64,000 bases of DNA from Thermoplasmatota archaeon (GCA_040751795.1 JBFMHR010000003.1:160001-224000), one strand, 5' to 3'; positions 10,427 to 35,170 are shown, numbered from the stretch's first letter. Notes: generated from the letters alone by a model not told the origin. Numbers and translations: made by a program.

Positions 10427-12190
10427 TTGCCACGTTCTAGCGGGGACAAGCTCTGCCCCATCTGCGATTCTCCACTGCAGCCCGGCTCGAGGAAGTGCGG
10501 CTTCTGCGGCACCGACCTCGCCATATTCGATGTGGACACGGGACCGGCCGAGCCAGCCCCGCCCGCGCCCACGCCCGCGCCCGCGAGACCATCGATGGAG
10601 TCCAGGGTGAGGGAGGTCCTCTCGACGCCCCCGAGGCCGTCGCCCCAGCCTGCGCCCCAGCCTGCGCAGCAGGCTGCGGCACAGCCCGCGCCGGCGCCAG
10701 CCCCTGCACAGGCCCTGCCCAGGCCGTCGCCGCCGCCAGTGGCCGCCCCGGCACCCCCGCCCGCGGCGGAGAAGAAGGCCGAGCCCGCTCCTGAGCCGGA
10801 GCCCCTGAGGGCCGAGGAGGAGGCCCACGAGTACTTCGCGTGCCCGGAGTGCGGCGCCAAGGTCGAGGCGCACTCGAGCACCTGCCCAGGGTGCGGCGTC
10901 ATGTTCGCCGAAGAGGGCGCAGAGATGTTCCAGTGCCCCGCATGCAACTCGCTGGTCAACATAGACTCCAAGAGCTGCCCCGGCTGCGGCGCCGTGTTCG
11001 TCGAGGCCGAGGAGGGACCGGCCGCTGAGCCGGAGGCGGCCAGGCCCAAGCCCGAGATCGAGGAGCCCATATCGGAGGTGGCTCCGAGGAGGGACGAGCC
11101 AGCCCCGGTCGCGGCCACCGGGCAGGAACCGGCCCGGGCCGAGGCCGTCGGGCCCGCCGCGGAGCCGGCGCCGGCCGCCGAGCCCGAGGTGCGGAAGGGC
11201 CGCATGGGGCTCGGATGGCTGAAGAAGCGGAAGAAGGAGGAGGAGCCGAAGCCCACTGAGGCGGAGCCCGACGAGGAACCGTCCCCGAAGCCGGAGCCGC
11301 CGAGGAGGTTGCTGCGTCAGCACGAGCCGGCCCCGGCCCCGACCCCGGCCCCGGAACCCGAGCCCGAGCCGCGCTACGAGCCACCGCCGATGGCGAGGCC
11401 CAGGCCCGAGCCGCCGCGGGGCGAGGCCAAGGACAAGGGCAAGGAGCTCGCGCGCATGGTCGCCGAGATGAAGCCCATACTCACGCTCGCCAACGAGAAG
11501 GACATCGACATAGCGGACAGCAAGAAGCTCATCGACGACGCGGCCGAGGCGGGGAGGGACCGGCAGCTCGAGAAGGCCCTGGAGCTGGTCAACAGGTCCA
11601 GGACGATCCTCATGGGCAAGATCGACGGCCACCTGGGGACGGTGCTCTCCCAGCTGAAGGAGGAGACCGCGGTGGCCAGGTCGCTCGGGGGAGACGTGTC
11701 GAGGGCGCGCACCTACCTGGTCGAGATAGAGAGGGCGAAGGCCGCGGGCGACGCCGAGGCCGCGTACGTGTACGCCGACAAGGTGTCGAACGAGCTGCTC
11801 CCCATTACCGGGAGGTACAAGGAGGCCCTCTCCAGGACAGCGGCCCTCAAGTCCCTCGTCACGGACTGCGAGACGCTGATACTCGACACCAAGGAGGCCA
11901 GGACGGCCCTGGTCGAGGCGAACAAGGCCTTCGAGACCAACGACTTCGAGAGGGTGGAGATGCTCGTCAAGCAGGCGACGGACAGGCTCTACAGGGCCAT
12001 CCCCGACAGGATCAACGAGGAGATGCACGCCGCCAAGGGCCAGCTCATCGAGGCGAAGATGAGGAACATCAACACCACCCCCATGATCACGATCCTCAAG
12101 TCCGTCAGGACGCTCATGAAGGCCGGCGACTACCAGCAGGCCCTCAGGGAGATGAAGGAGTTCAAGGAGCAGATGCGGAAGGTCATGTGA
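10427..12190 (+). CDS. Zinc-ribbon protein with Pro/Ala/Glu-rich linkers and a helical C-terminal domain
   Basis: Three CxxC-x10-CxxC ribbons; low-complexity linkers; amphipathic helical repeats; TTG start after GGAGG. Confidence 0.75.
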   Translation: MPRSSGDKLCPICDSPLQPGSRKCGFCGTDLAIFDVDTGPAEPAPPAPTPAPARPSMESRVREVLSTPPRPSPQPAPQPAQQAAAQPAPAPAPAQALPRPSPPPVAAPAPPPAAEKKAEPAPEPEPLRAEEEAHEYFACPECGAKVEAHSSTCPGCGVMFAEEGAEMFQCPACNSLVNIDSKSCPGCGAVFVEAEEGPAAEPEAARPKPEIEEPISEVAPRRDEPAPVAATGQEPARAEAVGPAAEPAPAAEPEVRKGRMGLGWLKKRKKEEEPKPTEAEPDEEPSPKPEPPRRLLRQHEPAPAPTPAPEPEPEPRYEPPPMARPRPEPPRGEAKDKGKELARMVAEMKPILTLANEKDIDIADSKKLIDDAAEAGRDRQLEKALELVNRSRTILMGKIDGHLGTVLSQLKEETAVARSLGGDVSRARTYLVEIERAKAAGDAEAAYVYADKVSNELLPITGRYKEALSRTAALKSLVTDCETLILDTKEARTALVEANKAFETNDFERVEMLVKQATDRLYRAIPDRINEEMHAAKGQLIEAKMRNINTTPMITILKSVRTLMKAGDYQQALREMKEFKEQMRKVM

Positions 12191-14321
12191 GGTTCAGTAC
12201 CTCCATCTCCCGCTCCAGTATCGAGGTCTCCTGCTCCTTCATCGTCTGGGGCGACAGGGACACGGCGAAGACGCACTCCGACTCCGAGACCTCGTCGACC
12301 AGGCTCCTCAGGAACCTCAGGACGGCGTCGAAGTTCGTGTTGCTCGTGAGGTACTGTATCCCGTCGAGGACGATCATCCCGTTCCCCTCCCCCGCCATGA
12401 ACTCCTGGATCTTGTGGATGATCATCTCGAGCGACGGCGGGACGGTGGCCTCGACGGAGCTCTGCTTGTCCGTGAGCCACAGGATCTGAGGGACCTCCTT
12501 GAACTCGTCCTTGATCCTGCTAGGGTTCATGCGCGTTATCACGAGCCCGCGGTACCCCTCGGCCATCATCCTCGCGAGGAGGACGTTGCTGTACATGGGC
12601 TTCTCCTCCTCTATGAGGTAGCAGTGGCCGGGGAGGACCTTGACCTCCCTCATGATCTCCTTCCTCGTCTCCTGGACCGGCGCGAGGGGCTTCAGTATGT
12701 CCGAGACGAGGTTCAGGTCGACGTCCATCTTCATGATGCTCGAGAACGCGATGATCTTGTTGAGTGTGCTCTCCAGCTCCCTGACGTTCTGGGTCACCCT
12801 CTCCGCGATGTACTCGATGATCTCGTCGCTCAGCTTGAGCTTCTTCTCCTCGGCCTTCATCCCGAGGATCTTGACCCGGGTCTCCATGTCCGGCGGCTGT
12901 ATGTCCACCGTGAGCCCCTTCTGAATGCGCGCGTTCAGCCTGTCGTTGAAGCCCGGTATCTGCGTCGGCAGGCGGTCGCTCGCGAACACGACCTGCCTCC
13001 CCGACTCGATCATGCGGTCTATGGCGTGGACCATCTCCCCCTGGGCGCGCTCGCTCGCCGCCAGGAACTGCATGTCGTCGACCAGGAGGAGCTCCACCCT
13101 GTTCAGCGCCTCCCTGACCGGCTTGAGCCCGTCCGGGGTCCCGCACTGCTCTACCGCGTCGACGAACTTGTCCGAGGGCACGTAGAGCAGGTCGAGCTTC
13201 GGGTTCTTCTTGAGCATGTGGCACCCGATCGCCGATAGGAGGTGCGTCTTGCCCAGGCCGGACCCGCCGAATATCAGCAGGGGGTTGTAGGCCTTGCCGG
13301 GCCTCTCGGCCACGGCGACGGCGGTCGCGGCCGCGAACTTGGAGCCGGGCCCGATCACGAACCCGTCGAACCGGAGCTCGGCCATGAGGGGTTTGGAGAA
13401 GCCCGGGGCCTCCGCCGCCCCGGCCGGGCACCTCGGGCAGGCGCCGGCCTCGTCCAGGTCGGCCCCGCACCTGGGGCACTTCGCGGCCTCCTTGGCGGCC
13501 TCCGCCCCCTCCGGGGCGGTCTGGTACTTGAGTATGAGGTCGTAGACGTCCGCCGCCTTCTCCTCCTGCCTCTTCTTCTCGAGCTCCTGCTTGATGGACT
13601 CCTCCTCGTCCCGCCTCTTCTGTATCTTGCGCCTGATCTTCTCCTGGAGGAACTCGATGTCCGACTCTATCTCCGCTATCCTGGTCCTGTCGTCCAGCTT
13701 GGTCCTTATCTCGGCGATCTCCGCCTCGAGCCCCATCACCGGGAAGTTGTTGAGGATGGCCTCGAACTGCTTCAGCCTCGAGGCGTCGTACTCGAACGCG
13801 GCGAGCTCCTTGGCCGCGGCCTGGGGTCCCGCCCTCGCGGCCTGCTCAAGCGTGTCGACCTTGAACCCCTTCCTGCGCCACTCCTCGATCCTCTCCCCGG
13901 TCGGGTCGCCCTCGGCCTCCTCCGGCTCCTCCGCGGGGGCCTTCTGCACGGGCGCGCCCGCGATGTACGAGTCGGGGAACCTCCTCTCGAACTCGGTCTT
14001 GGGGACGCGGCTGTGCAGCTCGATGCCCGACGCCTTGTCCTGCGAGTCCTCTAGAATGAACCGCAGGGACTTCTCGCCGGTGTAGATCCTCCTCAGCTCC
14101 CTCGGCTTGGACTTCTCGAACTCGTAGATGGCCATCATCGGCGTGCCCTGCTCGACGACGATGTAGCCGGTGGAGGTCATGAAGGGCTTCTCTAATGTCA
14201 CCTTCAGGTAGCCGGTGAAGCTGTACTGCTTCAGGTCTGCCAGGATTCCCTTGAGGGAGTCCGGCCCTCCCTTGGCAGTGCGGACCACGATGCCCTCTGG
14301 GATGCGGAGGTCTGTGACCAT
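12183..14321 (-). CDS. Multidomain protein: DUF2226-like N-domain, coiled coil, zinc ribbon, DnaA-type AAA+ (domain III), DUF835
   Basis: F..FVIG...AVAERPGKAYNPLLIFGGSGLGKTHLL, LLVDDMQFL, SDRLP, GLTVDIQPPDMETR, NVRELE; C-terminal GLVITRMNP/WLT/LDGIQYL/LERE is DUF835-like; start at M42 of the listed ORF because the extension overlaps the tRNA and its promoter. Confidence 0.82.
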   Translation of the reverse strand: MVTDLRIPEGIVVRTAKGGPDSLKGILADLKQYSFTGYLKVTLEKPFMTSTGYIVVEQGTPMMAIYEFEKSKPRELRRIYTGEKSLRFILEDSQDKASGIELHSRVPKTEFERRFPDSYIAGAPVQKAPAEEPEEAEGDPTGERIEEWRRKGFKVDTLEQAARAGPQAAAKELAAFEYDASRLKQFEAILNNFPVMGLEAEIAEIRTKLDDRTRIAEIESDIEFLQEKIRRKIQKRRDEEESIKQELEKKRQEEKAADVYDLILKYQTAPEGAEAAKEAAKCPRCGADLDEAGACPRCPAGAAEAPGFSKPLMAELRFDGFVIGPGSKFAAATAVAVAERPGKAYNPLLIFGGSGLGKTHLLSAIGCHMLKKNPKLDLLYVPSDKFVDAVEQCGTPDGLKPVREALNRVELLLVDDMQFLAASERAQGEMVHAIDRMIESGRQVVFASDRLPTQIPGFNDRLNARIQKGLTVDIQPPDMETRVKILGMKAEEKKLKLSDEIIEYIAERVTQNVRELESTLNKIIAFSSIMKMDVDLNLVSDILKPLAPVQETRKEIMREVKVLPGHCYLIEEEKPMYSNVLLARMMAEGYRGLVITRMNPSRIKDEFKEVPQILWLTDKQSSVEATVPPSLEMIIHKIQEFMAGEGNGMIVLDGIQYLTSNTNFDAVLRFLRSLVDEVSESECVFAVSLSPQTMKEQETSILEREMEVLNLT

Positions 14322-20853: not shown

Positions 20854-21606
20854 ATGCGTCGCCGTCGACCCCCCGTCGAGGAGGCAGTTGACTTGTTTAA
20901 GGACTCGATTCCAGGGCTGGACAAGGTCTTCAAGAACGACATCGAGCGTCCGAAGGTCATACTCGTCACCGGCCCGCCGGGCTCCATGAAGACGAGCTTC
21001 TGCTACTCCCTCATGTCCAACTACCTCAGGGACAAGAACGAGTTCGGCCTCTATGCGACCCTCGAGGAGACGGCCGAGAGCCACATGCACAACATGGAGA
21101 GCATGGGGGTGAAGCTGTCCGCGAAGATGCAGATCTCGGACATGACCGACCTCAGGGAGATCGACCAGATCGACGAGGTCATAGGGGAGAGCGCCCAGAC
21201 CGACTACGTCCTGTTCATAGAGAAGATGATCCAGAGGTTCAGGCGCACCCACGGCGACAAGTTCTCGGTCCTGGTCATAGACTCCCTGGGGGCGCTCTAC
21301 TCCCTGATGTCCGAGTCGGCCGAGATGAGGAAGAAGATGTTCTACTTCTTCAAGATGCTCAGGGACAACAACCTCGTCACTTTCATCATAATGGAGCGCT
21401 CCCTCACCGGGGAGTCGCAGCTCCTGGGGAACGAGGGGTTCCTCGCGGACGGCATCGTGATGCTCGGCCTCGACAGGCAGAGGGGGAAGCTGGTCAGGTA
21501 CCTCCAGGTCGAGAAGATGAGGGCCGCAGAGCACAGCATGGAGAAGCACGCGATAGAGGTGACCAAGAGCGGGATGACGGTCCTGGGCCCGCTCCTGACG
21601 ACATGA
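20854..21606 (+). CDS. RAD55/KaiC-family ATPase (single domain; true start may be TTG near 20893)
   Basis: SIPGLDK, variant Walker A GPPGSMKTS, YATLEE, LVIDSL, FLADGIV, VEKMR. Confidence 0.85.
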   Translation: MRRRRPPVEEAVDLFKDSIPGLDKVFKNDIERPKVILVTGPPGSMKTSFCYSLMSNYLRDKNEFGLYATLEETAESHMHNMESMGVKLSAKMQISDMTDLREIDQIDEVIGESAQTDYVLFIEKMIQRFRRTHGDKFSVLVIDSLGALYSLMSESAEMRKKMFYFFKMLRDNNLVTFIIMERSLTGESQLLGNEGFLADGIVMLGLDRQRGKLVRYLQVEKMRAAEHSMEKHAIEVTKSGMTVLGPLLTT

Positions 21607-21735: not shown

Positions 21736-22722
21736 ATGACCGAAGACCAGACTATCTCCCAGATAATCGAGGACGCGATCAAGCGACTGAAGGCCCAGGA
21801 GGCGGAGGTCCTGAAGAAGGGCCGCGAGCTCCAGGCCGAGAAGGACGAGCTCCAGAAGCAGAAGGCCGAGGTCGCCTCCCAGGAGGAGCGCCTGAGGGAG
21901 AAGGAGGACGGGCTCAGGCAGAGGGAGTCGGCCGCGGACCGGAAGGAGGCCGACGTCAAGGCCAGGGAGGAGGCCGCGCAGGCCAGGGCCGACAAGATCT
22001 CCGCCAGGGAGGCCGAGGTCGTCAAGATGGACGAGAGGGCCAGGGCCGCCAGCGTGTCCGCGGAGGCGCGCGAGGAGGAGGCCCAGAGGTCCCTGGAGGA
22101 GTGCACGAGGCTCCAGGCCGAGGCCACCGAGAAGAGGAGGGCGCTCCTGGACCGCGAGGAGCTGATGAAGAGGTCCGAGGACGAGGTCCAGAAGCTCATG
22201 GAGCAGGTCGTCTCCAGGCGGGACGCCGTCATAGCGAGGGAGCGCGCGCTGGCCGAGGAGGAGGAGGCCCTGAGGAAGGACCGGGAGAAGCTCTCCGAGG
22301 ACGCGAAGTCGCTCCTGCAGAGGCAGACCGCGTCCCTGGCGGCCCCCGCGTCCAAACCGGAGGCGGCCGAGGAGGCCCGCGTCATGGGTGAGGACGAGAT
22401 GCCCTGCCCCAAGTGCTACACCGTCATCAGCAGGGACGCCGTCATGTGCTACTCCTGCGGGGTCAGGCTCCGGGAGGAGCCAGAGGCCGCGGAGGAGGCG
22501 CCCCAGGCCCAGCCGGCGGCCGAGGCGGTCGAGGAGGACGAGGTCCCCTGCCCCAGCTGCAAGACCATGGTCAGCAAGGACGCCATCATGTGCTACGCCT
22601 GCGGGGCCGACCTGAGGGCGGCCGCCGCGCAGCCCGCGGAGGAGGCCCCGAAGGAGGCCTCCCCCGAGCCCAAGAAGCCGCAGGTCTTCGTCAAGAAGAT
22701 CGTGAAGAGGAAGACGGTCTAG
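21736..22722 (+). CDS. Coiled-coil protein with two tandem zinc ribbons and a basic C-terminal tail
   Basis: E/K/R/A heptad region; EDEMPCPKC..CYSCG and EDEVPCPSC..CYACG; ends VFVKKIVKRKTV. Confidence 0.75.
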   Translation: MTEDQTISQIIEDAIKRLKAQEAEVLKKGRELQAEKDELQKQKAEVASQEERLREKEDGLRQRESAADRKEADVKAREEAAQARADKISAREAEVVKMDERARAASVSAEAREEEAQRSLEECTRLQAEATEKRRALLDREELMKRSEDEVQKLMEQVVSRRDAVIARERALAEEEEALRKDREKLSEDAKSLLQRQTASLAAPASKPEAAEEARVMGEDEMPCPKCYTVISRDAVMCYSCGVRLREEPEAAEEAPQAQPAAEAVEEDEVPCPSCKTMVSKDAIMCYACGADLRAAAAQPAEEAPKEASPEPKKPQVFVKKIVKRKTV

Positions 22723-22832
22723 CCAGACGTGCGGCAAAACCTTCTTCGGCATGAGAACTCGGCAAATACCTTTTTATACAGCTGAACTGCTTACTTTGCC
22801 TAACGATACCCAGCTTCTGGGTGGGTGAACTT

Positions 22833-25800
22833 ATGGAACACAGAGCTGGCCCTATTCTGGCCAACAGATCTCTGAGCGCGTTGATCGTCGTGTCATTTGT
22901 GCTGTCAGCCTTCGCAGGACTGTATATCGCGGCCTCCCCCTCCCCGTCGGCGGCGCAGGCACCGATCGGCGACCTCATCGTCACGAGCGGTACCTACATA
23001 ATCGAGAACATCGAGCAGCCAGTCGACGGCGACGTGGTGGTCTCCGGCGGAGAGCTGATCGTGAGGAACGGGGCCTTGATGGTCATAAGCAACGTCGGGG
23101 CCCCCAGGACCGTCACGGTGTCCGGCACGGGCACCCTGACGCTGGAGCACGGAGTGCTCACCTCCTACCTGGACCAGATAGACCCGTGGCCGTACCTCAC
23201 CCTCGACATAGACGGCGGCGGCACAGTCCGCGCCAGCTCACAGTCCATACTCCAGTTCCCCGGCTACATAACGGTCCAAGGCGGCGGCGCGCTCATCCTG
23301 GAGGACAGCTCGATCGAGCCCCTCTCCGCTGATGACCTCGCCGCATACGTCAGCGGCTCCGTCCTCATCACGGCCGACTCCGCGGACGACGGCCCGGCCA
23401 TAAGCGTGAGCGACGCCACCCTCGAGCTGTACGACTCGTCGATCACCTCCCTGCCCGAGTTCCCGTCGGACGGGGTCGTGGCCAGCAACCTGACCCTGAC
23501 GGGCGACTCGTCGCTCCTGGCGGTCAACAGCTACATCGACGTCGACTTCGGCCCGGCAGCCGACATCGACGACTGGTACGTCCACAACATGTTGGTCCTT
23601 GAGGACTCGTCCAGCGCCAACCTATATGGATCATACTTTGAGCCATATGTTGGATCGCTTTCGCAGAGAGCCCCTTCAGTTTCCGCGAATGGTGAGAGTT
23701 ACTTCGCCCTGCCCGCTACGAAGGCCGCTGAGGATAACACCGGACAGCCAATCGCCGACCTACTGGCAAGCGATGAAGGAGCAATCTACCATGTAGACCC
23801 GGGCGAGAGACTGTCAATTGAGACATTCTCCGCCGGAGCATCATCCGCAATTGATGGGGCAACTCTCTATGTGCGATATTCAGTCGGAAGCACATATGAT
23901 GGGGAGGAGTCCTTCGAATGGAGACTCGAAGGCGGGACCTACGCCTCGACGGGAATCACCCCATTGGCCTCCGAGACTACATATGTGGAAAAGAGTTTCG
24001 ATCTCTTCGCCGCCGGAGTCGCGACAACCGACGAAATCGCTGCTATGGATATCACATTCCTGAATGGCGGATCCAGCGGGAGTGTCGGCGTTGACAGCAT
24101 GTCGATTGTGATTACCATAGGTCCAGAAGCCTATGTGTACAGATGGATCAACATAACTGTCGGAGATGAGTATGGTGTGCCGATACCCGATTGTGAGATT
24201 TCCGCGATTTTCACAGGGTCCACATCATTTGGAGGACAGCCATCGTTCTACTTTGGGACGGACGGAATCTCATCCACCCCCCCGGAAGAAGTGCTTGATT
24301 ACATGGGTGTTGACGGAGCATCCTTCGGGATTACTGGCCCGATGGGCATTGCCCAGATCCCCCTCCTGACGGACCTCATTTCAGGTGGAGAATATCCGAA
24401 CTCTCTCTATGTAGGCACATTCGAGCTTACGGGCACCGTTGAGCAAGATTCGATTATCTACTCCTCAACTGAAGCCTTTTCCTTCCCCGCCTACCCTGCG
24501 ATGTCAGCGGCAGACCAGCAATTCGAGGTTACAGTTGATGTTGAAGGGATATCTGCCGAGAGTCCTGACTCCTCAAGGTGGCTAGTCGTTCCTCCAGACA
24601 TCCTGATTGAGGACATGGAGTACTACCACGCCGGCGATGTCATCGTCGCGTCCGACGGGACATTGACCCTGCGCAATGCGGTGTTCCGCCTGGTGCAGAC
24701 CTACGCCAATGAGCACACGATATACGTCGACGGGACTGCGAACTTCGTAATCGAGGACTCCGAACTGGTCAGCGCTCTGCCTATCGACATAATCGTGAAG
24801 GGCCAGGGCACCCTAGAGGTCGTGGATTCCACACTCACCGGAGTGAACATCTACGCGACGGAGGAAGCGGTCGTCAAGCTGAACGGCGCGTCGTTCAATG
24901 GCCTGCTCACGACCTCGTGGGACTCGGAAGCCTACATAATGATATACGATTCGTACCTGGTCCAGTCGCCAGAGCTGTCCGGCTCGACGGTGTGTGAGAT
25001 CACGAACACCAGCGCGCCGTCGATAGTCGTGATGGATGACGCGATGGCCTTCCTCTACAGGTGGATCCACATAACCGTGTTCGACGGAGGCGACTATCCG
25101 CTAGAGGGGGCCGACGTCTACGCGCGGTTCTATGTCAACGAGACCTTCTGGACCTCCTCGAAGACCGACCCGTCCGGTGTGGCCAGGCTGAAGTCGTTGA
25201 GCACCATCCTGACATCGTCGGGCTCGACCTACATCGGCCAATACAGGGTGAACGCATCCTACTGGAGCGACGGCGTCGAACATGTCTCGGACAGCGAGGT
25301 GAGCGTGAGCGTGATGCCCTACACGCAGCCCCTGACCGAGAATGCGACATTCGAGGTGCTGCTCATATCGTCCGTCCTGTTGCCGGACCTCTCCGTCATA
25401 TCCGATGAGATACTCACGGACCCGGAAGACGTCGTGTTGAACGGCGAGTGCACCATATATGCGCGTGTCTGGAACTACGGCGAGACGGCGGCCATCAACA
25501 CCACGGTCGATTTCCTCGTGGGTGAATCGCTGGCTGTCGCGGAGCTCATAGGCACTGACATAGTCGACACGATAGCGGCGGGCAGCTTCAGGGACGCATC
25601 CATCACCTGGGTGCCTGACGTCACTGGCCTGCACACCATATGGGTCGTCGTGAACGGCGCTCCTGACTTCGACGAGAGGACATTCAACAACAACAACGCC
25701 TCCGTCGTCGTCGACGTCCTGGAATACGCGGACCTCTTCATGTATCCCCTCAGCTTCTACATCTATGGGACCACCACCCCGATCGACAGCGCAGCCGGCG

Positions 25801-27548
25801 GGGAGACCGTGACGATCTCCGGATACCTCTACAACGTGGGCGAGGCCCCGGTCACCGGGATATCCGTGCACCTGGCCGTGGTCTACGACAGCACACTAGA
25901 CAGCGACGACATGACCATCACAGAGACGCTCGAGATGAACGACCGCTACCTCGTGTCCTTCGACTACACGCTCGAGGTCCTCGATGCGGACACAGAGATC
26001 GAGTTCACCATATCCGTGAACCCTGCCAGGTCCATCCTAGAGACGTCCTATCTGAACAACAACCAGTCGGGAGTGATGACGATCCTCGATGTGCGAGCCG
26101 ACTTCTCGGTCGACGTGGCCGATGTGTACATCGAGTACGGCGCTGAGGACGACGTGGAGCCGATCTTCGGCAACACGGTCACCATCGTGGCCCTCGTCTA
26201 CAACGAAGGCGGGACCGACCCAGGCGAGATCAACATCTCGTTCGGGATCGAGGGCACGCCCCTGCCGTTCGCGATCGTGAGCGACAGCTTCGCGCCAGGT
26301 CAGTCCCACGAGGTGCGCGCGGAGTACCTCATAAGCCTGACTGACGGGGACGTGTACCAGGTCTACGTCAATGTGGACTGCAACGAGTCATACTGGGAGA
26401 AGAACGAGACCAACAACTACGCCGCGATCGACTTCGAAGTGATTCAGCTGGAGGTCGACATCACGGTCAACGCGGCCTCGGCGGAGTACGAGGCCGACGA
26501 CACGATGGTCGTCACGGCATCCGTCGTCTACGCTGGCACTCAGACGCCGGTGAAGAGCCTGCGCGGCGTGCAGGTCGAGTTGGTGCCCCCGGATGACGAT
26601 GAGGCGATAGTGTGGTCCGAGGCCAAGTACACCAACTCGCAGGGCATGGTCTCGTTCGACCTGAGGGTGCCGGCCACGGCCGAGAGCGGGACCTACACGG
26701 TGATCTGCAGCATCGAAGGCCTGGCTGACACCGGCTCCGCGACGGTCGAGATAATCGGCACCGTCTCGGGCGGCGGCATCCCGCTCCTGGTCTGGATCGT
26801 GGTGATAGCGGCCATAGCCGCGGTCGTCATAGGCTTCACCGCGTACACCTACATCTACGGCCTCGGCAAGCTCGTCGAGTGCGGCGAGTGCGGCGAGTTC
26901 ATACCCGCGGCGAGCAAGAGGTGCCCGAAGTGTGGCGTGGAGTTCGAGGCCGGGACGATGAAGTGCTCCGAGTGCGGGGCATGGGTGCCGGCCGAGTCCA
27001 CAGAGTGCCCGAACTGCGGCGTCAAGTTCGTCGGAGAGGAGCTCGGGGAGGAGGACTATCTCGAGAAGATGAGGAAGGAGTACGACGAGATGGTCTCGAA
27101 GTACCGCGAGCTCGCGAAGGCGGAGCTGGGCAAGAAGTTCAGCGACAAGGCGTTCGAGCAGTGGTGGATGGCCCAGCCGGCGTACATCAGCTTCGACGAC
27201 TGGCTCGCGAAGGAGGAGGAGAAGCGGAAGGAGACCCCCGTCGCCTGCCCGGTCTGCGGGACGCTGAACCCGAAGGAGGCCACGGTCTGCAACAAGTGCG
27301 GTACGGTCTTCGCGGCTGCGGCAGTCACCGCGCAGAAGCGCCCGCCGCAGAGCCCGCCGAGCGGCGGGCAGGAGCCCGCCCAGGCGGCCCCCGCGGCGCA
27401 GCCCCCGGCGGAGCCGGCCCAGCAGCCGGCCGCGCCGAGGATGGTCATCCGCAGGCCGATCGACCGCAAGGTCGTCCCCAAGAAGATCATCAAGACCCCG
27501 CTGGGCGGCCAGGGCGAGGGCGACACGCAGAACGGCGAGAACCAGTAG
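22833..27548 (+). CDS. Giant membrane-anchored surface protein (beta-helix modules, 3 CARDB-like Ig domains, TM helix, cytoplasmic zinc ribbons)
   Basis: Signal peptide; acidic beta-rich body; xDL/F...VxN.G...E...NN CARDB motifs; TM 'IPLLVWIVVIAAIAAVVIGF'; three CxxC..CxxC ribbons after the TM. Confidence 0.82.
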   Translation: MEHRAGPILANRSLSALIVVSFVLSAFAGLYIAASPSPSAAQAPIGDLIVTSGTYIIENIEQPVDGDVVVSGGELIVRNGALMVISNVGAPRTVTVSGTGTLTLEHGVLTSYLDQIDPWPYLTLDIDGGGTVRASSQSILQFPGYITVQGGGALILEDSSIEPLSADDLAAYVSGSVLITADSADDGPAISVSDATLELYDSSITSLPEFPSDGVVASNLTLTGDSSLLAVNSYIDVDFGPAADIDDWYVHNMLVLEDSSSANLYGSYFEPYVGSLSQRAPSVSANGESYFALPATKAAEDNTGQPIADLLASDEGAIYHVDPGERLSIETFSAGASSAIDGATLYVRYSVGSTYDGEESFEWRLEGGTYASTGITPLASETTYVEKSFDLFAAGVATTDEIAAMDITFLNGGSSGSVGVDSMSIVITIGPEAYVYRWINITVGDEYGVPIPDCEISAIFTGSTSFGGQPSFYFGTDGISSTPPEEVLDYMGVDGASFGITGPMGIAQIPLLTDLISGGEYPNSLYVGTFELTGTVEQDSIIYSSTEAFSFPAYPAMSAADQQFEVTVDVEGISAESPDSSRWLVVPPDILIEDMEYYHAGDVIVASDGTLTLRNAVFRLVQTYANEHTIYVDGTANFVIEDSELVSALPIDIIVKGQGTLEVVDSTLTGVNIYATEEAVVKLNGASFNGLLTTSWDSEAYIMIYDSYLVQSPELSGSTVCEITNTSAPSIVVMDDAMAFLYRWIHITVFDGGDYPLEGADVYARFYVNETFWTSSKTDPSGVARLKSLSTILTSSGSTYIGQYRVNASYWSDGVEHVSDSEVSVSVMPYTQPLTENATFEVLLISSVLLPDLSVISDEILTDPEDVVLNGECTIYARVWNYGETAAINTTVDFLVGESLAVAELIGTDIVDTIAAGSFRDASITWVPDVTGLHTIWVVVNGAPDFDERTFNNNNASVVVDVLEYADLFMYPLSFYIYGTTTPIDSAAGGETVTISGYLYNVGEAPVTGISVHLAVVYDSTLDSDDMTITETLEMNDRYLVSFDYTLEVLDADTEIEFTISVNPARSILETSYLNNNQSGVMTILDVRADFSVDVADVYIEYGAEDDVEPIFGNTVTIVALVYNEGGTDPGEINISFGIEGTPLPFAIVSDSFAPGQSHEVRAEYLISLTDGDVYQVYVNVDCNESYWEKNETNNYAAIDFEVIQLEVDITVNAASAEYEADDTMVVTASVVYAGTQTPVKSLRGVQVELVPPDDDEAIVWSEAKYTNSQGMVSFDLRVPATAESGTYTVICSIEGLADTGSATVEIIGTVSGGGIPLLVWIVVIAAIAAVVIGFTAYTYIYGLGKLVECGECGEFIPAASKRCPKCGVEFEAGTMKCSECGAWVPAESTECPNCGVKFVGEELGEEDYLEKMRKEYDEMVSKYRELAKAELGKKFSDKAFEQWWMAQPAYISFDDWLAKEEEKRKETPVACPVCGTLNPKEATVCNKCGTVFAAAAVTAQKRPPQSPPSGGQEPAQAAPAAQPPAEPAQQPAAPRMVIRRPIDRKVVPKKIIKTPLGGQGEGDTQNGENQ

Positions 27549-27671
27549 GCTCTCCGCCCCAAACCTCCCAAACCTCTTCCACCGTTTCTCGGTCCTTCTT
27601 CTCCATCCTTCCTGGAGGGCGACCACCGCGGAATTATACGCGCGACCGCCATTCCTTCCCAGGGTAGAAGG

Positions 27672-28475
27672 ATGAAGGAGAACGAAGCGATCAGGACGAT
27701 GCTAGAGCACAGGTCGGTGAGGAGGTATTCGAGGCGCCGCCCCTCGGCCGAGTCGGTCGAGACCGTTGTGCGGGCGGGCCAGCAGGCGCCGTTCGCCTCC
27801 CAGATGTACAGCGTCGTACTGTCCAGGGACAGGACCAGGAACCCGTTCAGGGCACCGCTCCTCTTCACCGTGTGCATCGACTCGCACAAGTTCGAGCTGA
27901 TAATGGCGAAGAGGGGCTGGAGGATGGCGACCAACGACCTCACCCTCCTCTTCTTCGGGATAGAGGACGCCCTCCTGATGGCGGAGAACATGGTCGTGGC
28001 GGCGAGGAGCCTGGGGATGGGCAGCTGCTTCCTCGGGTTCGCGATGTACGACGCGGACAGGATCGCCCGAAGGCTGGGCCTGCCCCAGAGGGTGTTCCCG
28101 ATAGTCCAGCTGGCCATGGGGTATCCGGCGGAGGCCCCTCCGCCGAGACCGCGCTATCCCCTGGACTTCACGCTCTTCGAGGGCCGGTACCCGGAACTGG
28201 ACGACGAGGCGGTGTCGGCGGCTATGAAGGCCATGGACGACGGGTATCTGGCGCAGGATTACTACAGGGTCAACCGGGCGAAGATACCCCTCGAGGGGGG
28301 CAGGGAGGAGACCTACGACCTGAGCGACTACAGCTGGACGGAGCACATCTGCAGGAAGTGGGGGCAGTGGCACCCCAGCCCGGACGGGCTCCTGAGGCAG
28401 CTGGAGCTGAGGGGGTTCCACATATGCGGGGCCTCGGCCCCCGCCCCGAAGCGGCGGGGGCGCCGTCAAGGGTAG
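27672..28475 (+). CDS. Nitroreductase family flavoprotein
   Basis: HRSVRRY, AGQQAP, DALLMAENMVVAARSLGMGSCFLG, LAMGYP. Confidence 0.85.
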   Translation: MKENEAIRTMLEHRSVRRYSRRRPSAESVETVVRAGQQAPFASQMYSVVLSRDRTRNPFRAPLLFTVCIDSHKFELIMAKRGWRMATNDLTLLFFGIEDALLMAENMVVAARSLGMGSCFLGFAMYDADRIARRLGLPQRVFPIVQLAMGYPAEAPPPRPRYPLDFTLFEGRYPELDDEAVSAAMKAMDDGYLAQDYYRVNRAKIPLEGGREETYDLSDYSWTEHICRKWGQWHPSPDGLLRQLELRGFHICGASAPAPKRRGRRQG

Positions 28476-28494
28476 CGCGGCGTGCCGTCCACAC

Positions 28495-30210
28495 TCAGGC
28501 CGGTGCAGGGGCGCCCTCGGCCAGCTTCGCCCTGACCTCCTTCATGACCTTGTCGGGGTCCTTGTAGTAGGCGGAGATGATCGTGGCGACGCGCCTGTGG
28601 TTGTCCATCCCGACCTTCTTCATGTACTCGAGTATGTCCACGCGCCTCTTGATCTCCCTCTCCATCTCCCTGGGGGACCAGTTCCTGGCCATCCTGACCT
28701 TCTCGTAGATGTAGCTGTGGCCGCTGTAGTTGAAGGTGTCGTCCGCGGGGTTCCAGGTGTAGACCGAGTTGGTGATCAGCTCGTTCGTCTCCGGGTCTAT
28801 GCCCACGACCTCCGTGAGGGACTTGACCCGCCTGGTCATCTTGGTGCCCACCTTCACCTGCGCCTGCATGAGCACGAGGTTCAGCGCGGTGATGAGCGCC
28901 CTGGGCAGGTTGATGGGGTCGTTCTCCATCCTGTGCACCATCGCCTGGACGTCCTCCGCGTGGAACGTGGAGTAGCAGGTCTTGCCGGTCGCCATCGCCT
29001 GGAAGACGACGTACGCCTCCTTACCCCTGACCTCACCGACCATCAGGTACTGGGGCCTCTGCCTCATGGCCGCGGTGAGGAGGTCGAACATGTCTATCTC
29101 GCCGGACGCCCTCCCGGTGACGGCGCTCTTGCCGCCGAACCCCTCCCTGGTCAGGCCGGGGATCCAGTTCTCGTGGGGCAGGTTGAGCTCCCTGGTGTCC
29201 TCTATCGAGACGATCTTCATCTGGGGAGGTATGAACAGAAGGACGGCGTTCAGGGTGGTGGTCTTCCCGCTCGCCGTGCCGCCGCACACGAGCATCGACT
29301 GGCCGTGCTCGATGCTTATCCAGAGGTAGGCCATCATCTCGGTGCTCATGGTCTTGAACTTGAGGAGGTCCAGCGGCGTGAAGGGGTTCTCCTTGAACCG
29401 CCTGATGGTGAACGAGGAGCCCTTCTTGGTGACGTGCTTGCCGAGGGTGGCCTGCAGCCTCGAGCCGTCGGGGATGGTGGCGTCGAGGAGCGGGCTGGCG
29501 ACGGATATGTGCTTGCCGCACTTCTGGGCCAGCCAGACGACGAACCCGTCGAGCTCCTGCTCCTTCTCGAACTTGAGGTTGGACCTTATGGAGCCGTACT
29601 TCCTGTGGTAGATGTACAGCGGGACGGCGACCCCGTCGCACGAGCAGTCCTCGACGCTCGGGTCGGTCATCATTACGTCTATGACGCCGTAGCCCAGGAA
29701 GTCCCTGAGGACGTAGTACACCACCTTCTCCTTGGATATGGGGTGGAGCGTGATGCCGAGCTTGACCATGAGCTCGTCGACGATCCTCCTCAGGTACTTC
29801 TCCTTCTCGGACTTCTCGGCCTCGGTCATCCTCTCGACCGAGCCGACCAGCGTCTCCTTGAGGAGCTCCAGCACGTCCGACTCGTCATCGGACAGCTTCG
29901 GCTCTATGACCTCGTACGTGTACTCGTTGGCGCGGTTGTCGTACCTTATCCGCACATAGGAGTAGTTCTGCTTGACCGGGGTCATCTCGACCTCGTCGAC
30001 GTTCGACTCGGTTATCTTGGGGACCTCGGTGATCTGGCTGAAGTCCACCTTCGCCTCGCTCTTCGAGACGGTGATGAGGGTGGGCCTCGGCTTGAGCTTC
30101 ATGAGGACGCCGTAGTACGCAGCGCGTATGCCGCCGCTCTTCGGCTTCTCCTCTGGGACGGTCTGCTCTGCACTCTCTTCGGTCTTGGCGCGCTCGGTCT
30201 CGGTCATCTC
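28495..30210 (-). CDS. Type IV pilus/archaellum-family assembly ATPase (VirB11/FlaI-like), copy 2
   Basis: VEDCSCDG, SFTIRRF, GGTASGKTT, SIEDTRE, RQRPQYLMVGEVRG, STFHA. Confidence 0.92.
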   Translation of the reverse strand, partial: EMTETERAKTEESAEQTVPEEKPKSGGIRAAYYGVLMKLKPRPTLITVSKSEAKVDFSQITEVPKITESNVDEVEMTPVKQNYSYVRIRYDNRANEYTYEVIEPKLSDDESDVLELLKETLVGSVERMTEAEKSEKEKYLRRIVDELMVKLGITLHPISKEKVVYYVLRDFLGYGVIDVMMTDPSVEDCSCDGVAVPLYIYHRKYGSIRSNLKFEKEQELDGFVVWLAQKCGKHISVASPLLDATIPDGSRLQATLGKHVTKKGSSFTIRRFKENPFTPLDLLKFKTMSTEMMAYLWISIEHGQSMLVCGGTASGKTTTLNAVLLFIPPQMKIVSIEDTRELNLPHENWIPGLTREGFGGKSAVTGRASGEIDMFDLLTAAMRQRPQYLMVGEVRGKEAYVVFQAMATGKTCYSTFHAEDVQAMVHRMENDPINLPRALITALNLVLMQAQVKVGTKMTRRVKSLTEVVGIDPETNELITNSVYTWNPADDTFNYSGHSYIYEKVRMARNWSPREMEREIKRRVDILEYMKKVGMDNHRRVATIISAYYKDPDKVMKEVRAKLAEGAPAPA

Positions 30211-30212
30211 AA

Positions 30213-31148
30213 TCACGCAAACAGTACCCTAAGCATCACGAACCCGGCCAGCAGCATGATGAAGCTGTGCCTCATCCCTATCGGCAGGCTGCCCTTCTGT
30301 ATCACGCCCGCGAGCAGCCCGTCGCCCACGGCGTGCACGACCACCGCGAGCAGGAACACGAACCCGACGTCCTCGATCACGCTTATCTTGATGTTGACGC
30401 CGGGTATCTCCGCGATGCCCATCTCCTGGGCCGCCTCGCTGACCGTCGTCCCCGCCTCCTCCATCTTCGGCAGGAACTGGAGGTTGAGGATCAGGATGGT
30501 CGCGATGAACACGAAGAAGGAGATGTACACGACCATGACGTAGGTGGACATGGTCAGGTTCCTCTCCTCCTGGGTCAGGATCGCCTCCTTGGCGTCGTGG
30601 GAGACCATCGTCAGCACGTCGGCGACGTTGCCGCCCGCGTCGTTGGCCTTCCTTATGATCGAGGCCATCCTCACGACCAGGGGGGTCTTGACCCTCTCCG
30701 AGAAGAGCCGTATGGCCTCGGAGGCGGGGACTCCCCACTCTATCTGGGCGGACATCTTCTTGATCTCCGGCGTGAGCCTCCCGTACCTCCCGGTGGATGC
30801 CACCACTATCGAGTCGGCCAGGGTCATGCCGAACCTGCCCGCCTCGGCGACGTCCCTGAGGAAGTCGGGGAGCCTCGTCTCTATCTCCTTGACGTTCCTC
30901 TCCTTCGTGGACACGTAGAACCCGTACGGCCCGAGGAGGGCCAGCAGGGCGAAGATGACGTAGTCGATCGGGTCGAAGGGGAGCGCCAGGCTGCCCATGG
31001 AGTCGATGAGGGCCATGAAGCCGAACACGCCCACGAGCGCCATGGACACGATCAGTATGGTCCTCGTCTTGTCGGCCTTCTCAGTGGCGAGTATCTCCTT
31101 GACCGCCCTCTTCTGCTCGGCCTGGGAGAGCTTCTTGACAGCCGCCAT
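30213..31148 (-). CDS. Type II secretion system F / TadC-like membrane platform protein
   Basis: LPDFLRD, YGRLTPE..WG, GGNV..VL; several TM helices; start MAAVKK. Confidence 0.85.
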   Translation of the reverse strand: MAAVKKLSQAEQKRAVKEILATEKADKTRTILIVSMALVGVFGFMALIDSMGSLALPFDPIDYVIFALLALLGPYGFYVSTKERNVKEIETRLPDFLRDVAEAGRFGMTLADSIVVASTGRYGRLTPEIKKMSAQIEWGVPASEAIRLFSERVKTPLVVRMASIIRKANDAGGNVADVLTMVSHDAKEAILTQEERNLTMSTYVMVVYISFFVFIATILILNLQFLPKMEEAGTTVSEAAQEMGIAEIPGVNIKISVIEDVGFVFLLAVVVHAVGDGLLAGVIQKGSLPIGMRHSFIMLLAGFVMLRVLFA

Positions 31149-33929: not shown

Positions 33930-33941
33930 CCTCACCGCCTC

Positions 33942-34925: not shown

Positions 34926-34940
34926 CCTACCACCGAAGGG

Positions 34941-35010
34941 GGTTGCTGAAGCAACCTAATCAGCACCTGGAATATATTTAAAGGTGTCGTTTTTGCTATC
35001 GTCTGGAATA
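34941..35010 (-). promoter_or_regulatory. Pilus operon promoter (minus-strand TTTAAATA) with a palindrome and direct repeats
   Basis: GGTTGCT-GA-AGCAACC at 34941-34956; CTGGAATA at 34967 and 35003; TATA at about 34975-34982. Confidence 0.5.
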
Positions 35011-35122
35011 CACCTTCCGAAAACACGCCAGGAACCGCCTTCCGCGCGCGTCCCGCGCCTCCTCCGGGGCCCCTCCCCGAGCCCTCGTCCGATGAGGCGC
35101 TCCCCGCCGCCCCTCCGACCAA

Positions 35123-35136
35123 GGAAGGTTTAATAC
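35123..35136 (+). promoter_or_regulatory. BRE/TATA promoter of tRNA-Phe
   Basis: GGAAGG-TTTAATA about 40 nt upstream of the tRNA. Confidence 0.65.
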
Positions 35137-35170
35137 CGAGGTACGCCTAACTGCCAATCCCCACCTGAAT

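What the first reader, a model, noticed from the sequence alone, without database searches (positions are those of the whole stretch)
12183..14321. Bacterial DnaA AAA+ domain in an archaeon, lacking its DNA-binding domain and fused to archaeal modules
Seen: about 12690-13380 encodes a near-complete DnaA domain III: RFDGFVIG, AYNPLLIFGGSGLGKTHLL (Walker A), LLVDDMQFL (Walker B), SDRLP, RLNAR..GLTVDIQPPDMETR and NVRELE (sensor II Arg). Domain IV (the DnaA-box HTH) is absent and replaced by a DUF835-like domain. The N-terminus has a DUF2226-like domain (FTGYLKV..GYIVVE.G), a coiled coil and a zinc ribbon. Known: archaea initiate replication with Orc1/Cdc6, and DUF835 is regarded as an inactive KaiC/RecA-like domain associated with archaeal signalling. 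Inference: a DnaA ATPase repurposed as a nucleotide-switched oligomerising hub, or an ssDNA-binding origin/cell-cycle factor connected to the KaiC network.
Basis: partly seen in the sequence, partly recalled or inferred. Interest (0 to 1): 0.9.

Follow-up and report, generated by a model that had tools for sequence, protein, structure and literature searches.

The report
Archaeal DnaA-core ATPase fused to DUF835
An uncultured Thermoplasmata archaeon carries a conserved gene built around the intact ATP engine of the bacterial replication starter DnaA, without its DNA-reading parts, and its fixed gene neighbours suggest an ATP-controlled assembly switch, not a replication initiator.

Summary
Window 12183-14321 (-) encodes a 712-aa protein: a DUF2226-like N-domain, a coiled coil, a 4-Cys zinc ribbon, a complete DnaA domain III (Pfam Bac_DnaA 9e-48; 43% identical to B. 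subtilis DnaA, TM 0.94) and a C-terminal DUF835. There is no DnaA domain I or IV. It is not chimeric. It lies deep in a 354-kb archaeal contig, is single-copy in 24 of 24 other genomes of its family, and keeps its synteny across the class.

New here:
- ATP-site and arginine-finger residues are invariant (121/121). The four residues by which DnaA holds single-stranded DNA are all replaced in this family, yet kept in more distant orthologues.
- The gene stays linked to a zinc-ribbon protein (16 of 18 loci), a KaiC-like ATPase and a second zinc-ribbon protein, even where gyrB-gyrA is not between them.
- In 7 of 7 extended loci a giant surface protein and type IV pilus genes follow.
- The genome has two Orc1/Cdc6 genes, one followed by a stand-alone DUF835 gene (26 of 30 loci).

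Best reading: an ATP-gated self-assembling scaffold or regulator, not an initiator. I found no paper on it. This scan reported the same family before in at least 6 other genomes.

The parts
12183..14321 (-). Whole gene: 712-aa DnaA-core/DUF835 fusion protein (stop codon 12183-12185)
   Evidence: Translation. 1252 homologues at E<=1e-3 among 8000 scored; the 120 listed are 66-96% identical at 97-100% coverage. Single copy in 35 of 41 relatives.
13968..14321 (-). N-terminal alpha/beta domain (residues 1-118), DUF2226-like
   Evidence: AF2 of this domain alone gives pLDDT 91.4. DUF2226 is matched by 7 of 11 orthologues, best E 4.4e-5, but the window copy scores only E 0.047. Atlas: a DUF2226 cluster at 0.88 and PatA_N at 0.83. 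No solved fold relative: 0 Foldseek PDB hits at E<=1e-3.
13521..13907 (-). Helical region and long coiled coil (residues 139-267), after an acidic low-confidence linker
   Evidence: Model helices 140-150, 156-191, 199-208 and 212-267. Conserved in 40 homologues.
13428..13478 (-). Four-cysteine zinc ribbon (C282, C285, C295, C298)
   Evidence: All four Cys are invariant in alignment A1. Weak DZR/Zn_ribbon Pfam hits.
12687..13388 (-). DnaA domain III (AAA+ core plus lid, residues 312-545) with intact Walker A/B, sensor I/II and arginine finger
   Evidence: Residue census: K358, T359, D415, D416, D449, R450, R465 and R514 are invariant in 121 of 121, and R461 in 120 of 121.
12186..12644 (-). C-terminal DUF835 domain (residues 560-712), no P-loop
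   Evidence: Pfam DUF835 96 bits against a cut-off of 33.1. Alignment A4 of 12 copies has no conserved GK[ST]. This is one of 12 DUF835 domains in the genome.
10427..12190 (+). Convergent neighbour 'ZnR': zinc ribbons, a Pro/Ala/Glu-rich linker and a C-terminal helical domain; its 3' end overlaps the gene by 8 bases. Inferred partner.
   Evidence: Pfam zinc ribbons. Adjacent to the orthologue in 16 of 18 loci from other genomes.
20854..21606 (+). Single-domain KaiC-like ATPase with intact Walker A/B. Inferred partner.
   Evidence: Pfam KaiC 7.3e-37. PDB KaiC and PH0186. 58-88% identical in 9 orthologues. Within the fetched stretch in 13 of 18 loci, including 3 where gyrBA is not between.
21736..22722 (+). 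'ZnR2': coiled coil plus two zinc ribbons; travels with the KaiC-like gene
22755..38184 (.). Downstream supercluster: giant CARDB/zinc-ribbon surface protein (22755-27545 +), PilB-like ATPases (28498-30228 -, 32169-33941 -), PilC-like (30216-32165 -), DUF7289 (33945-34955 -), HhH+KaiC protein (35779-38184 -)
   Evidence: Pfam. The same order is found in 6 of 6 extended loci of other genomes.

Best explanation
The gene encodes a DnaA-derived AAA+ ATPase that no longer reads DNA. Three things are shown. The ATP-binding and hydrolysis residues and the arginine finger that drives head-to-tail DnaA assembly are intact. DnaA domains I and IV are absent. In this family, the residues of the initiator-specific motif (ISM, a DnaA insertion) and of the alpha5-alpha6 loop that hold single-stranded DNA are replaced by polar or acidic, variable residues. 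The rest is inferred. ATP binding makes the protein self-assemble, helped by its coiled coil. The assembled form serves as a scaffold or switch. Its N-terminal DUF2226-like domain, its zinc ribbon and its C-terminal DUF835 hold partners. The most likely partners are the products of three genes that stay linked to it: a zinc-ribbon/helical protein, a KaiC-like ATPase and a second zinc-ribbon coiled-coil protein. In most lineages this four-gene module sits in a larger cluster with a giant surface protein and a type IV pilus machine, which it may regulate. It is not the replication initiator, because two Orc1/Cdc6 genes are present.
For: Anatomy.

Residue census. Walker A K and T, Walker B DD, sensor I, the arginine finger and sensor II are invariant in 121 of 121 family members. 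The R281 equivalent is R in 120 of 121. The positions of B. subtilis N187, I190, I193 and K222 read as follows: E82/D39; G32 E25 D22 S13 N11 K10 plus others; K35 Q24 G18 T12 plus others; S86 N28 D7. In 60 canonical bacterial DnaA the same positions read N52, I51/V8, I44/L11/V4 and K57/R3. The roles of these residues come from passages of PMC10721633.

Conservation. Single copy in 35 of 41 relatives and in 24 of 24 other genomes of the family.

Linkage. The ZnR gene is convergent and adjacent in 16 of 18 loci. The KaiC-like gene plus ZnR2 lie within the fetched stretch in 13 of 18 loci. They lie on the gyrBA side in 10 of these and directly beside ZnR, with no gyrBA between, in 3 (G428, G437, G433). 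The pair therefore survives rearrangement.

Supercluster. The full series with giant surface protein, PilB, PilC, PilB, DUF7289 and HhH-KaiC is present in the window and in 6 of 6 extended loci.

DnaA core and DUF835 together. They also occur as adjacent separate genes in G150 (L093).

Literature. KaiC-family ATPases are predicted regulators in archaeal type IV pilus loci (PMC4858521 abstract and passages).

Canonical initiators. Orc1/Cdc6 at C23:131551-132633 (445.6 bits) and C23:63241-64323 (265.1 bits).
Against: No binding, ATPase activity or oligomer was measured. Linkage counts come from related genomes and are not independent. In the 2 rearranged genomes that I extended (G428, G433), no PilB, PilC or giant protein lies within about 30 kb, so the pilus link is weaker than the four-gene link. 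The one direct DnaA-core/PilB fusion (G021) is a single protein on one contig, and its DnaA part is 54-67% identical to bacterial DnaA, so it looks like a separate, later event. That fusion keeps the 'DNA-contact' residues, so keeping them need not mean DNA binding, and losing them is suggestive rather than proof. The gene also lies beside gyrB-gyrA in 12 of 18 loci and 40-47 kb from orc1 in 4 genomes, which a chromosome-related role would also explain.
Confidence: 0.5

Rival explanations
1. It is a replication or chromosome-cycle regulator, comparable to Hda. Hda is a truncated DnaA that controls the initiator and does not itself initiate. Here the protein would act on Orc1/Cdc6, brought together through DUF835-DUF835 contacts.
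For: The second Orc1/Cdc6 paralogue is followed on the same strand by a stand-alone 182-aa DUF835 gene in the own genome and in 26 of 30 loci (the own locus and 29 from relatives). Two of the 4 misses are loci cut right after orc1. DUF835 is therefore paired with initiator-clade AAA+ ATPases twice in one genome. The gene lies next to thiC-gyrB-gyrA in 12 of 18 loci. It lies 40-47 kb from the main orc1 in G000, G417, G420 and G405. Hda likewise lacks domains I and IV (Hda_lid hit 5.9e-5).
Against: Hda models score far below DnaA models (99.4 against 281.9 bits). There are 12 DUF835 genes per genome, with varied N-terminal parts such as V4R and Prok-RING, so one adjacency to orc1 may be incidental. 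gyrBA adjacency is lost in 3 rearranged loci, and none of 15 loci with other DnaA-like architectures lies beside gyrB or gyrA. GC skew on the contig shows no origin signal.
Confidence: 0.2
2. It is a dedicated regulator or assembly factor of the adjacent type IV pilus and giant adhesin system. This is a narrower form of the best explanation.
For: The supercluster is conserved in 7 of 7 extended loci counting the window. G021 has a DnaA-core/PilB fusion flanked by DUF7289 and PilC. One 1990-aa protein (P0122) combines the MshEN domain of pilus-type ATPases with two DnaA cores. KaiC ATPases are predicted type IV pilus regulators (PMC4858521).
Against: The pilus genes are 14 kb away, with thiC and gyrBA in between. 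They are not nearby in G428 and G433. Each of the two fusions is a single observation.
Confidence: 0.25
3. It still works like DnaA on DNA, as an ATP-dependent single-strand-binding or duplex-opening accessory factor at an origin.
For: The fold and the ATP site are DnaA-like. R403, E424 and E429 (B. subtilis R202, E223, E228) are conserved. More distant orthologues of the same architecture keep I/V/L, L/M/I and K/R at the contact positions.
Against: Four of the contact positions are replaced in 121 of 121 family members. There is no domain IV to place the protein on DNA (phmmer with E. coli domain IV found none).
Confidence: 0.05
4. It is an evolutionary relic: a remnant of a bacterial dnaA...gyrB-gyrA origin segment that entered the lineage together with gyrase and was then rebuilt.
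For: Adjacency to gyrB-gyrA in 12 of 18 loci across several families. That dnaA...gyrB-gyrA is a common bacterial order, and that archaeal gyrase is of bacterial origin, are recalled and come from no call.
Against: The gene is divergent from gyrB, with thiC in between. The adjacency is absent in 3 rearranged loci and in 0 of 15 loci of other DnaA-like architectures. The tree gives no donor. The strict conservation argues for a current function whatever the origin.
Confidence: 0.1

Closest known systems
Bacterial chromosomal replication initiator DnaA, domain III (Pfam PF00308, NCBIfam TIGR00362; structures 8BTG/8BV3 B. subtilis, 2Z4R T. maritima, 1L8Q/2HCB/3R8F Aquifex)
   Same: Same fold (TM 0.94, 43% identity). 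Same Walker A/B, sensor I/II and arginine finger. The two-helix initiator-specific insertion and the lid are present.
   Different: No domain I, II or IV. Four DNA-contact residues are replaced in this family. New N-terminal modules and a C-terminal DUF835. Archaeal host with its own Orc1/Cdc6. Below the TIGR00362 cut-off.
Hda / HdaA (DnaA-related regulator lacking the DNA-binding domain)
   Same: A DnaA-type AAA+ core without domain IV. Weak Hda_lid and Hda model hits.
   Different: Much closer to DnaA than to Hda (281.9 against 99.4 bits; PDB 3e-62 against 6e-9). Three times longer, with other modules. No clamp-binding motif was tested.
DUF835 (PF05763), listed as an inactivated KaiC output domain in archaeal response regulators (PMC5847659, Table passage)
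   Same: C-terminal position, no P-loop, and a clear Pfam match.
   Different: Here it is attached to a DnaA core and not to REC/PAS. Homology to the neighbouring KaiC-like ATPase was not detectable by hhalign.
KaiC-family ATPases in archaeal type IV pilus loci (Makarova, Koonin, Albers 2016, PMC4858521)
   Same: A KaiC-like ATPase and pilus genes lie in one conserved cluster.
   Different: That paper's main text does not contain the word DnaA (0 occurrences). Its supplementary tables could not be read.

Membership tests
DnaA family, AAA+ domain III (PF00308) | Profile match above the curated cut-off | tested here: met
   162.9 bits against a cut-off of 23, covering profile 4-162 of 162.
DnaA family, AAA+ domain III (PF00308) | Walker A, Walker B, sensor I, box VII arginine finger, sensor II arginine | tested here: met
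   K358, T359, D415, D416, D449, R450, R465 and R514 are invariant in 121 of 121, and each aligns to its E. coli counterpart (K178, T179, D235, D236, D269, R270, R285, R334).
DnaA family, AAA+ domain III (PF00308) | DnaA fold with the initiator-specific two-helix insertion | tested here: met
   Foldseek against 8bv3_A: TM 0.94, rmsd 1.8 A over 234 columns. Model helices 383-393 and 400-408.
Full-length initiator DnaA (TIGR00362 equivalog) | Score above the equivalog cut-off | tested here: not met
   281.9 bits against a cut-off of 343.9; only profile positions 52-346 of 437 are matched.
Full-length initiator DnaA (TIGR00362 equivalog) | Domain IV (DnaA-box helix-turn-helix, PF08299) | tested here: not met
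   No hit at E<=1. phmmer with E. coli domain IV hits 60 canonical DnaA proteins (61 rows) but not this protein.
Full-length initiator DnaA (TIGR00362 equivalog) | Domain I (PF11638) | tested here: not met
   No hit at E<=1. phmmer with E. coli domain I finds none in this protein.
Full-length initiator DnaA (TIGR00362 equivalog) | Residues that hold the DnaA-trio single strand (B. subtilis N187, I190, I193, K222) | tested here: not met
   D388, E391, G394 and S423 in the window protein. None of the 121 family members has K/R at the K222 position, and none of the six commonest residues printed for the I190 and I193 positions is hydrophobic.
Full-length initiator DnaA (TIGR00362 equivalog) | Initiates replication at an origin with DnaA boxes | not testable with these tools
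   Needs biochemistry or genetics.
Hda (TIGR03420) | Score above the equivalog cut-off | tested here: not met
   99.4 bits against a cut-off of 194.8.
DUF835 (PF05763) | Profile match above the cut-off | tested here: met
   96 bits against a cut-off of 33.1, residues 577-706.
DUF835 (PF05763) | KaiC/RecA-like domain without an active P-loop ('iKaiC') | tested here: inconclusive
   No conserved GK[ST] in 12 aligned copies. Weak P-loop family hits: AAA_22 5.9e-6, FlaH 0.056. hhalign against the neighbouring KaiC-like family gives probability 0.55%. The iKaiC label comes from PMC5847659.
DUF2226 (PF09987) | Profile match above the cut-off | tested here: inconclusive
   The window N-domain scores 13.6 bits against a cut-off of 22. 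7 of 11 orthologues match at E<=1, best 4.4e-5, and only the first ~65 of 252 profile positions are matched. The genome-wide family search found no match.
Orc1/Cdc6 (TIGR02928) | Profile match | tested here: not met
   The five own-genome matches lie elsewhere. This gene is not among them.

The most novel reading that the evidence does not exclude
DUF835 is a dedicated partner module of initiator-clade AAA+ ATPases. It is fused to a DnaA core here. It is encoded just after the second Orc1/Cdc6 in 26 of 30 loci (the own locus and 29 from relatives). It lies next to a split DnaA core in G150. On this reading the DnaA-DUF835 protein meets the Orc1/Cdc6-2 system through DUF835 contacts and uses its intact arginine finger and ATP switch to control archaeal replication initiation. 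That would be an archaeal counterpart of bacterial Hda/RIDA (Hda-driven inactivation of DnaA), wired to KaiC-type signalling.
Probability: 0.1. Interest if true: 0.85.

Novelty: new variant of a known kind. Interest (0 to 1): 0.62.

Why it matters
DnaA is regarded as the hallmark bacterial initiator and Orc1/Cdc6 as the archaeal one. Here the DnaA ATP engine is a conserved, single-copy, strongly constrained gene in an archaeal family. It was found in 45 of 401 sampled genomes of the phylum, in many architectures, and never with the DNA-reading domain among the architectures I examined. This shows that the DnaA assembly switch can be reused away from origin DNA. It offers a natural separation-of-function series: orthologues with and without the single-strand contacts. 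It also points to an unstudied four-gene module (zinc-ribbon proteins, a KaiC-like ATPase and the DnaA-DUF835 protein) in uncultured Thermoplasmatota. Databases label these proteins 'chromosomal replication initiator protein DnaA', which is misleading for genome interpretation.

Tried and rejected
Complex prediction. The DUF835 domain (548-712) against the neighbouring KaiC-like ATPase gave a best score of 0.24, under the mark of 0.32, so the controls were not run. The result is no support and no verdict either way.

Expression. No RNA holder is listed for the gene: one run with a 0.07 share of words, of uncertain kind.

GC skew. The cumulative range on contig C23 is only -0.06 to 0.40 over 5-kb windows, with no origin signal.

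Tree. I built a quick IQ-TREE of 114 rows, which I chose from about 180 available domains. I left out most of the 120 close homologues, 34 canonical DnaA representatives and 36 tandem proteins, and I did not include the own Orc1/Cdc6. The backbone is unresolved: 49 of 110 inner branches are open. The outgroups Hda and DnaC have branch lengths of 6 and 10. No donor and no count of acquisitions can be drawn from it. One starred branch (97) separates 18 class-level DUF835 orthologues, 6 long tandem rows and the outgroups from the other 88 rows. The AU test was not run.

Fold of the N-domain. There is no solved relative: 0 hits at E<=1e-3, best TM 0.39.

DUF835 against KaiC. hhalign found no similarity.

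DnaA-PilB fusion. I considered it as Rosetta-stone evidence and then down-weighted it, because it is a singleton cluster on one contig.

tRNA. ARAGORN found no tRNA at 14200-14700, but Rfam did.

Literature. No paper holds DUF835 together with DnaA. Searches found none that describes an archaeal DnaA-core protein. I checked passages. Makarova et al. 2017 (mBio, KaiC hubs) is not held, so what I say of it is recalled. Supplementary tables of PMC4858521 and PMC10721633 were not read and may list such loci or residues.

Full report
WHAT IS THERE. The reading frame on the minus strand of window 12183-14321 gives a 712-aa protein. The frame is open up to a GTG at 14444. Homologues, however, start at the ATG (MVTDLRIPEG), and a tRNA lies at 14440-14540 on the plus strand (Rfam 55.9 bits; ARAGORN missed it). 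Pfam finds Bac_DnaA (9.2e-48, residues 315-473, the whole profile) and DUF835 (2.2e-27, 577-706). It finds no DnaA domain I or IV at E<=1. NCBIfam DnaA (TIGR00362) scores 281.9 bits over profile positions 52-346 of 437. Hda scores 99.4, IstB 43.9 and DnaC 13.5. Against solved structures the best matches are all DnaA: B. subtilis 3.1e-62, T. maritima 2.1e-49, Aquifex 1.4e-34. Hda follows at 6.2e-9. An AlphaFold2 model from 40 homologues has mean pLDDT 82.1. Its ATPase domain superposes on B. subtilis DnaA domain III with TM 0.94, rmsd 1.8 A and 43% identity. The order of parts is:
- an alpha/beta N-domain (1-118)
- an acidic linker
- helices and a long coiled coil (139-267)
- a four-cysteine zinc ribbon (282-298, all four Cys invariant)
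- DnaA domain III with lid (312-545)
- DUF835 (560-712)

The N-domain alone folds with pLDDT 91.4 and has no solved relative. DUF2226 is matched weakly by the window copy (E 0.047) and by 7 of 11 orthologues (best 4.4e-5).

IS IT REAL AND ARCHAEAL. The window is positions 160001-224000 of a 353,596-bp contig in a 2.05-Mb genome that is 92.8% complete. The genome has two Orc1/Cdc6 genes (445.6 and 265.1 bits), archaeal pilus genes and only this one strong DnaA-type domain. The large protein database gave 1252 homologues at E<=1e-3 among 8000 scored. The 120 listed are 66-96% identical at 97-100% coverage and carry PF00308 plus PF05763. Where they are named, the names are 'DnaA/Hda family protein [Thermoplasmata archaeon]' or 'chromosomal replication initiator protein DnaA'. 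The ATPase domain is found once per genome in 35 of 41 relatives: 24 of 24 other genomes of the family, 3 of 3 of the sister family in the order, and 7 of 13 from other families of the class. Gene order around it is shared with 17 other genomes. The contig is therefore not chimeric at this gene.

WHICH AAA+ CLADE, AND HOW WIDE IS THE FAMILY. Read against 1.84 billion representative proteins, the 251-aa domain has 19,407 relatives at E<=1e-3 and 4,087 at E<=1e-30. I sorted the 150 listed representatives, plus the window protein, by local phmmer:
- 60 are canonical DnaA with domain IV
- 45 have two DnaA cores in tandem, one of them also with domain IV (one tandem protein is named from a Gemmatimonadota bacterium)
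- 10 carry DUF835
- 3 have the same N-domain followed by a long middle part and a C-terminal DnaA core
- 34 have a single core in other contexts

Bacterial DnaA (40-45% identity) ranks beside the archaeal paralogues (36-45%). In the phylum sample the domain occurs in 45 of 401 genomes. It is patchy: 23 of 24 in family f26, but 0 of 48, 0 of 26, 0 of 36 and 0 of 53 in f2, f5, f15 and f23. Some genomes have up to 6 copies. The architectures I scanned include HEAT repeats with DnaA core, DUF835 and a zinc ribbon; proteins of about 430 aa without DUF835; and proteins of 1200-1400 aa. None has domain IV. A quick tree of 114 chosen rows leaves the backbone unresolved, and Hda and DnaC sit on very long branches. 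I draw no donor from it.

THE DISCRIMINATING RESULT. I aligned 337 domains and read the functional columns. In the 121 members of the window's family, the Walker A K and T, Walker B DD, sensor I, the arginine finger (E. coli R285) and the sensor II arginine are invariant. The R281 equivalent is R in 120 of 121. The cryo-EM study of B. subtilis DnaA names the residues that hold the DnaA-trio strand: E183, N187, I190, I193, R202, K222/E223 and E228 (PMC10721633, passages). In 60 canonical DnaA these positions are N52/60, I51+V8/60, I44+L11+V4/60 and K57+R3/60. In the window's family they are E82/D39; G32 E25 D22 S13 N11 K10 and others; K35 Q24 G18 T12 and others; and S86 N28 D7. R202, E223 and E228 equivalents stay. 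Fourteen more distant proteins that also carry the N-domain and DUF835 mostly keep I/V/L, L/M/I and K/R. The order-level relative P0147 is intermediate. The ancestral protein therefore probably had the DnaA-type strand-holding surface, and this family lost it while keeping the ATP switch. One caveat: the DnaA-PilB fusion described below also keeps these residues, and the paper notes that ISM residues also serve protein-protein contacts. The 121 proteins are close kin, so the count shows constraint within one family, not 121 independent events.

NEIGHBOURS. The window genes in order are:
- Lhr-like helicase
- OGG glycosylase
- adenosine-specific kinase
- ZnR (10427-12190, +; zinc ribbons, Pro/Ala/Glu linker, helical C-domain; convergent, overlapping by 8 bases)
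- the gene itself
- tRNA
- thiC
- gyrB
- gyrA
- a single-domain KaiC-like ATPase with intact Walker motifs (20854-21606)
- ZnR2 (coiled coil plus two zinc ribbons)
- a giant CARDB/zinc-ribbon protein
- PilB, PilC, PilB
- DUF7289
- an HhH+KaiC protein

Among 18 loci from other genomes that hold the orthologue, ZnR is adjacent in 16. The KaiC-like gene is within the fetched stretch in 13; at least 3 of the other 5 are cut by contig ends. gyrB is present in 12. Two arrangements exist. In the first, KaiC-like plus ZnR2 lie beyond gyrA. In the second, seen in G428, G437 and G433, ZnR2, KaiC-like, ZnR and the gene lie directly together without gyrBA. The four genes thus stay together through a rearrangement, which is better evidence of a functional tie than conserved order alone. 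The longer series with giant protein and pilus genes is complete in 6 of 6 extended loci of the first arrangement. It is absent within about 30 kb in the 2 extended loci of the second. The ZnR C-domain is found in all 35 relatives that have the gene, and strongly in 2 of the 6 that lack it. KaiC-family ATPases have been proposed as regulators in archaeal type IV pilus loci (PMC4858521, abstract and passages). That text never mentions DnaA.

OTHER LINKS OF THE TWO DOMAINS. In G150 a 477-aa DnaA-core protein is followed by a separate DUF835 gene (L093). This is a split form of the fusion. In the own genome the second Orc1/Cdc6 is followed, 84 bases downstream on the same strand, by a 182-aa stand-alone DUF835. 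The pair is present in 26 of 30 loci (the own locus and 29 from relatives), and 2 of the 4 misses are truncated loci. The genome has 12 DUF835 domains, always C-terminal where I looked, behind varied N-terminal parts such as V4R and Prok-RING. It has 12 KaiC-type matches. In G021 one 806-aa protein joins a DnaA core to a PilB ATPase (Bac_DnaA 234 bits, T2SSE 124 bits) between DUF7289 and PilC. It is a singleton, and its core is 54-67% identical to bacterial, mostly Bacillota, DnaA. It therefore looks like a separate and more recent capture. P0122 joins an MshEN domain to two DnaA cores.

HOW IT MOST LIKELY WORKS. Shown: an intact DnaA-type ATP site and arginine finger; no DNA-reading domains; loss of four strand-holding residues; strict conservation; and stable linkage to ZnR, a KaiC-like ATPase and ZnR2. 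Inferred: ATP-driven head-to-tail assembly, as in DnaA filaments, reused as a scaffold or timer. The N-domain, zinc ribbon and DUF835 would hold partners. The output would go to the KaiC-type ATPase network and, in most lineages, to the neighbouring surface-protein and pilus system. I put this at about 0.5. A chromosome-related regulator of the Hda kind, suggested by the orc1-2/DUF835 pair and the gyrase neighbourhood, stays open at about 0.2. A DNA-melting role is unlikely for this family (0.05). The idea of a relic of a bacterial origin segment brought in with gyrase has little support. The gene is divergent from gyrB, thiC lies between, and none of 15 loci with other DnaA-like architectures lies beside gyrase.

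NOVELTY. I found no paper on an archaeal DnaA-core protein. One likely source, Makarova et al. 2017, is not held, and supplements were closed. Databases already annotate the family, misleadingly, as DnaA. This scan has reported the family in at least 6 other genomes with similar verdicts. One of those notes (e1-5579743) gave me the lead to the pilus supercluster, which I then confirmed here.
- the residue census showing loss of strand contacts in this family only
- the rearrangement-resistant four-gene module
- the orc1-2/DUF835 pair
- the split form of the fusion
- the singleton status of the PilB fusion

I class it as a new variant of a known kind, with interest 0.62.

Noticed in passing
G000:C23:63217-64383 and the next gene (L055 1477-2646 and 2730-3278): The second Orc1/Cdc6 paralogue is followed 84 bases downstream, on the same strand, by a stand-alone 182-aa DUF835 gene. 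The pair is present in 26 of 30 loci (the own locus and 29 from relatives); 2 of the 4 misses are truncated loci.
   Followed up: partly
L091 9532-11994 (G021; protein P0157): A single 806-aa protein joins a DnaA domain III to a PilB-type pilus ATPase, between DUF7289 and PilC genes. It is a singleton cluster, and its DnaA part is 54-67% identical to bacterial DnaA, so it looks like a recent separate capture.
   Followed up: partly
Proteins P0123-P0149 and others: About 45 of the 150 best representatives are proteins of roughly 480-900 aa with two DnaA cores in tandem (two are about 1900 aa), all but one without domain IV. One is named from a Gemmatimonadota bacterium. P0122 (1990 aa) adds an MshEN domain. 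This appears to be an unstudied bacterial DnaA-core family.
   Followed up: no
window 14440-14540 (+): A tRNA of 101 nt, so it carries an intron. Rfam finds it at 55.9 bits, but ARAGORN does not report it. Other notes of this scan describe a non-canonical D-loop intron here.
   Followed up: partly
window 22755-38184: A giant CARDB/zinc-ribbon protein, two PilB-like ATPases, a PilC-like protein, DUF7289 and an 802-aa HhH+KaiC protein form a cluster. It is conserved in the same order in 6 of 6 extended loci of other genomes.
   Followed up: partly
L093 8947-10377 and 10462-11391 (G150): A 477-aa DnaA-core protein is immediately followed by a separate DUF835 gene, a split form of the fusion. A further DUF835 gene lies 4 kb upstream.
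   Followed up: no
window 11417-12187 (ZnR C-terminal domain): The helical C-domain of ZnR has paralogues in each relative. They include proteins of about 300 aa and proteins of about 1500 aa that hold several copies. This is a repeat family with no Pfam match.
   Followed up: no
G000:C23:112037-113178: Another DUF835 protein (464-aa frame) lies directly beside a 224-aa KaiC-type ATPase gene in the same genome.
   Followed up: no
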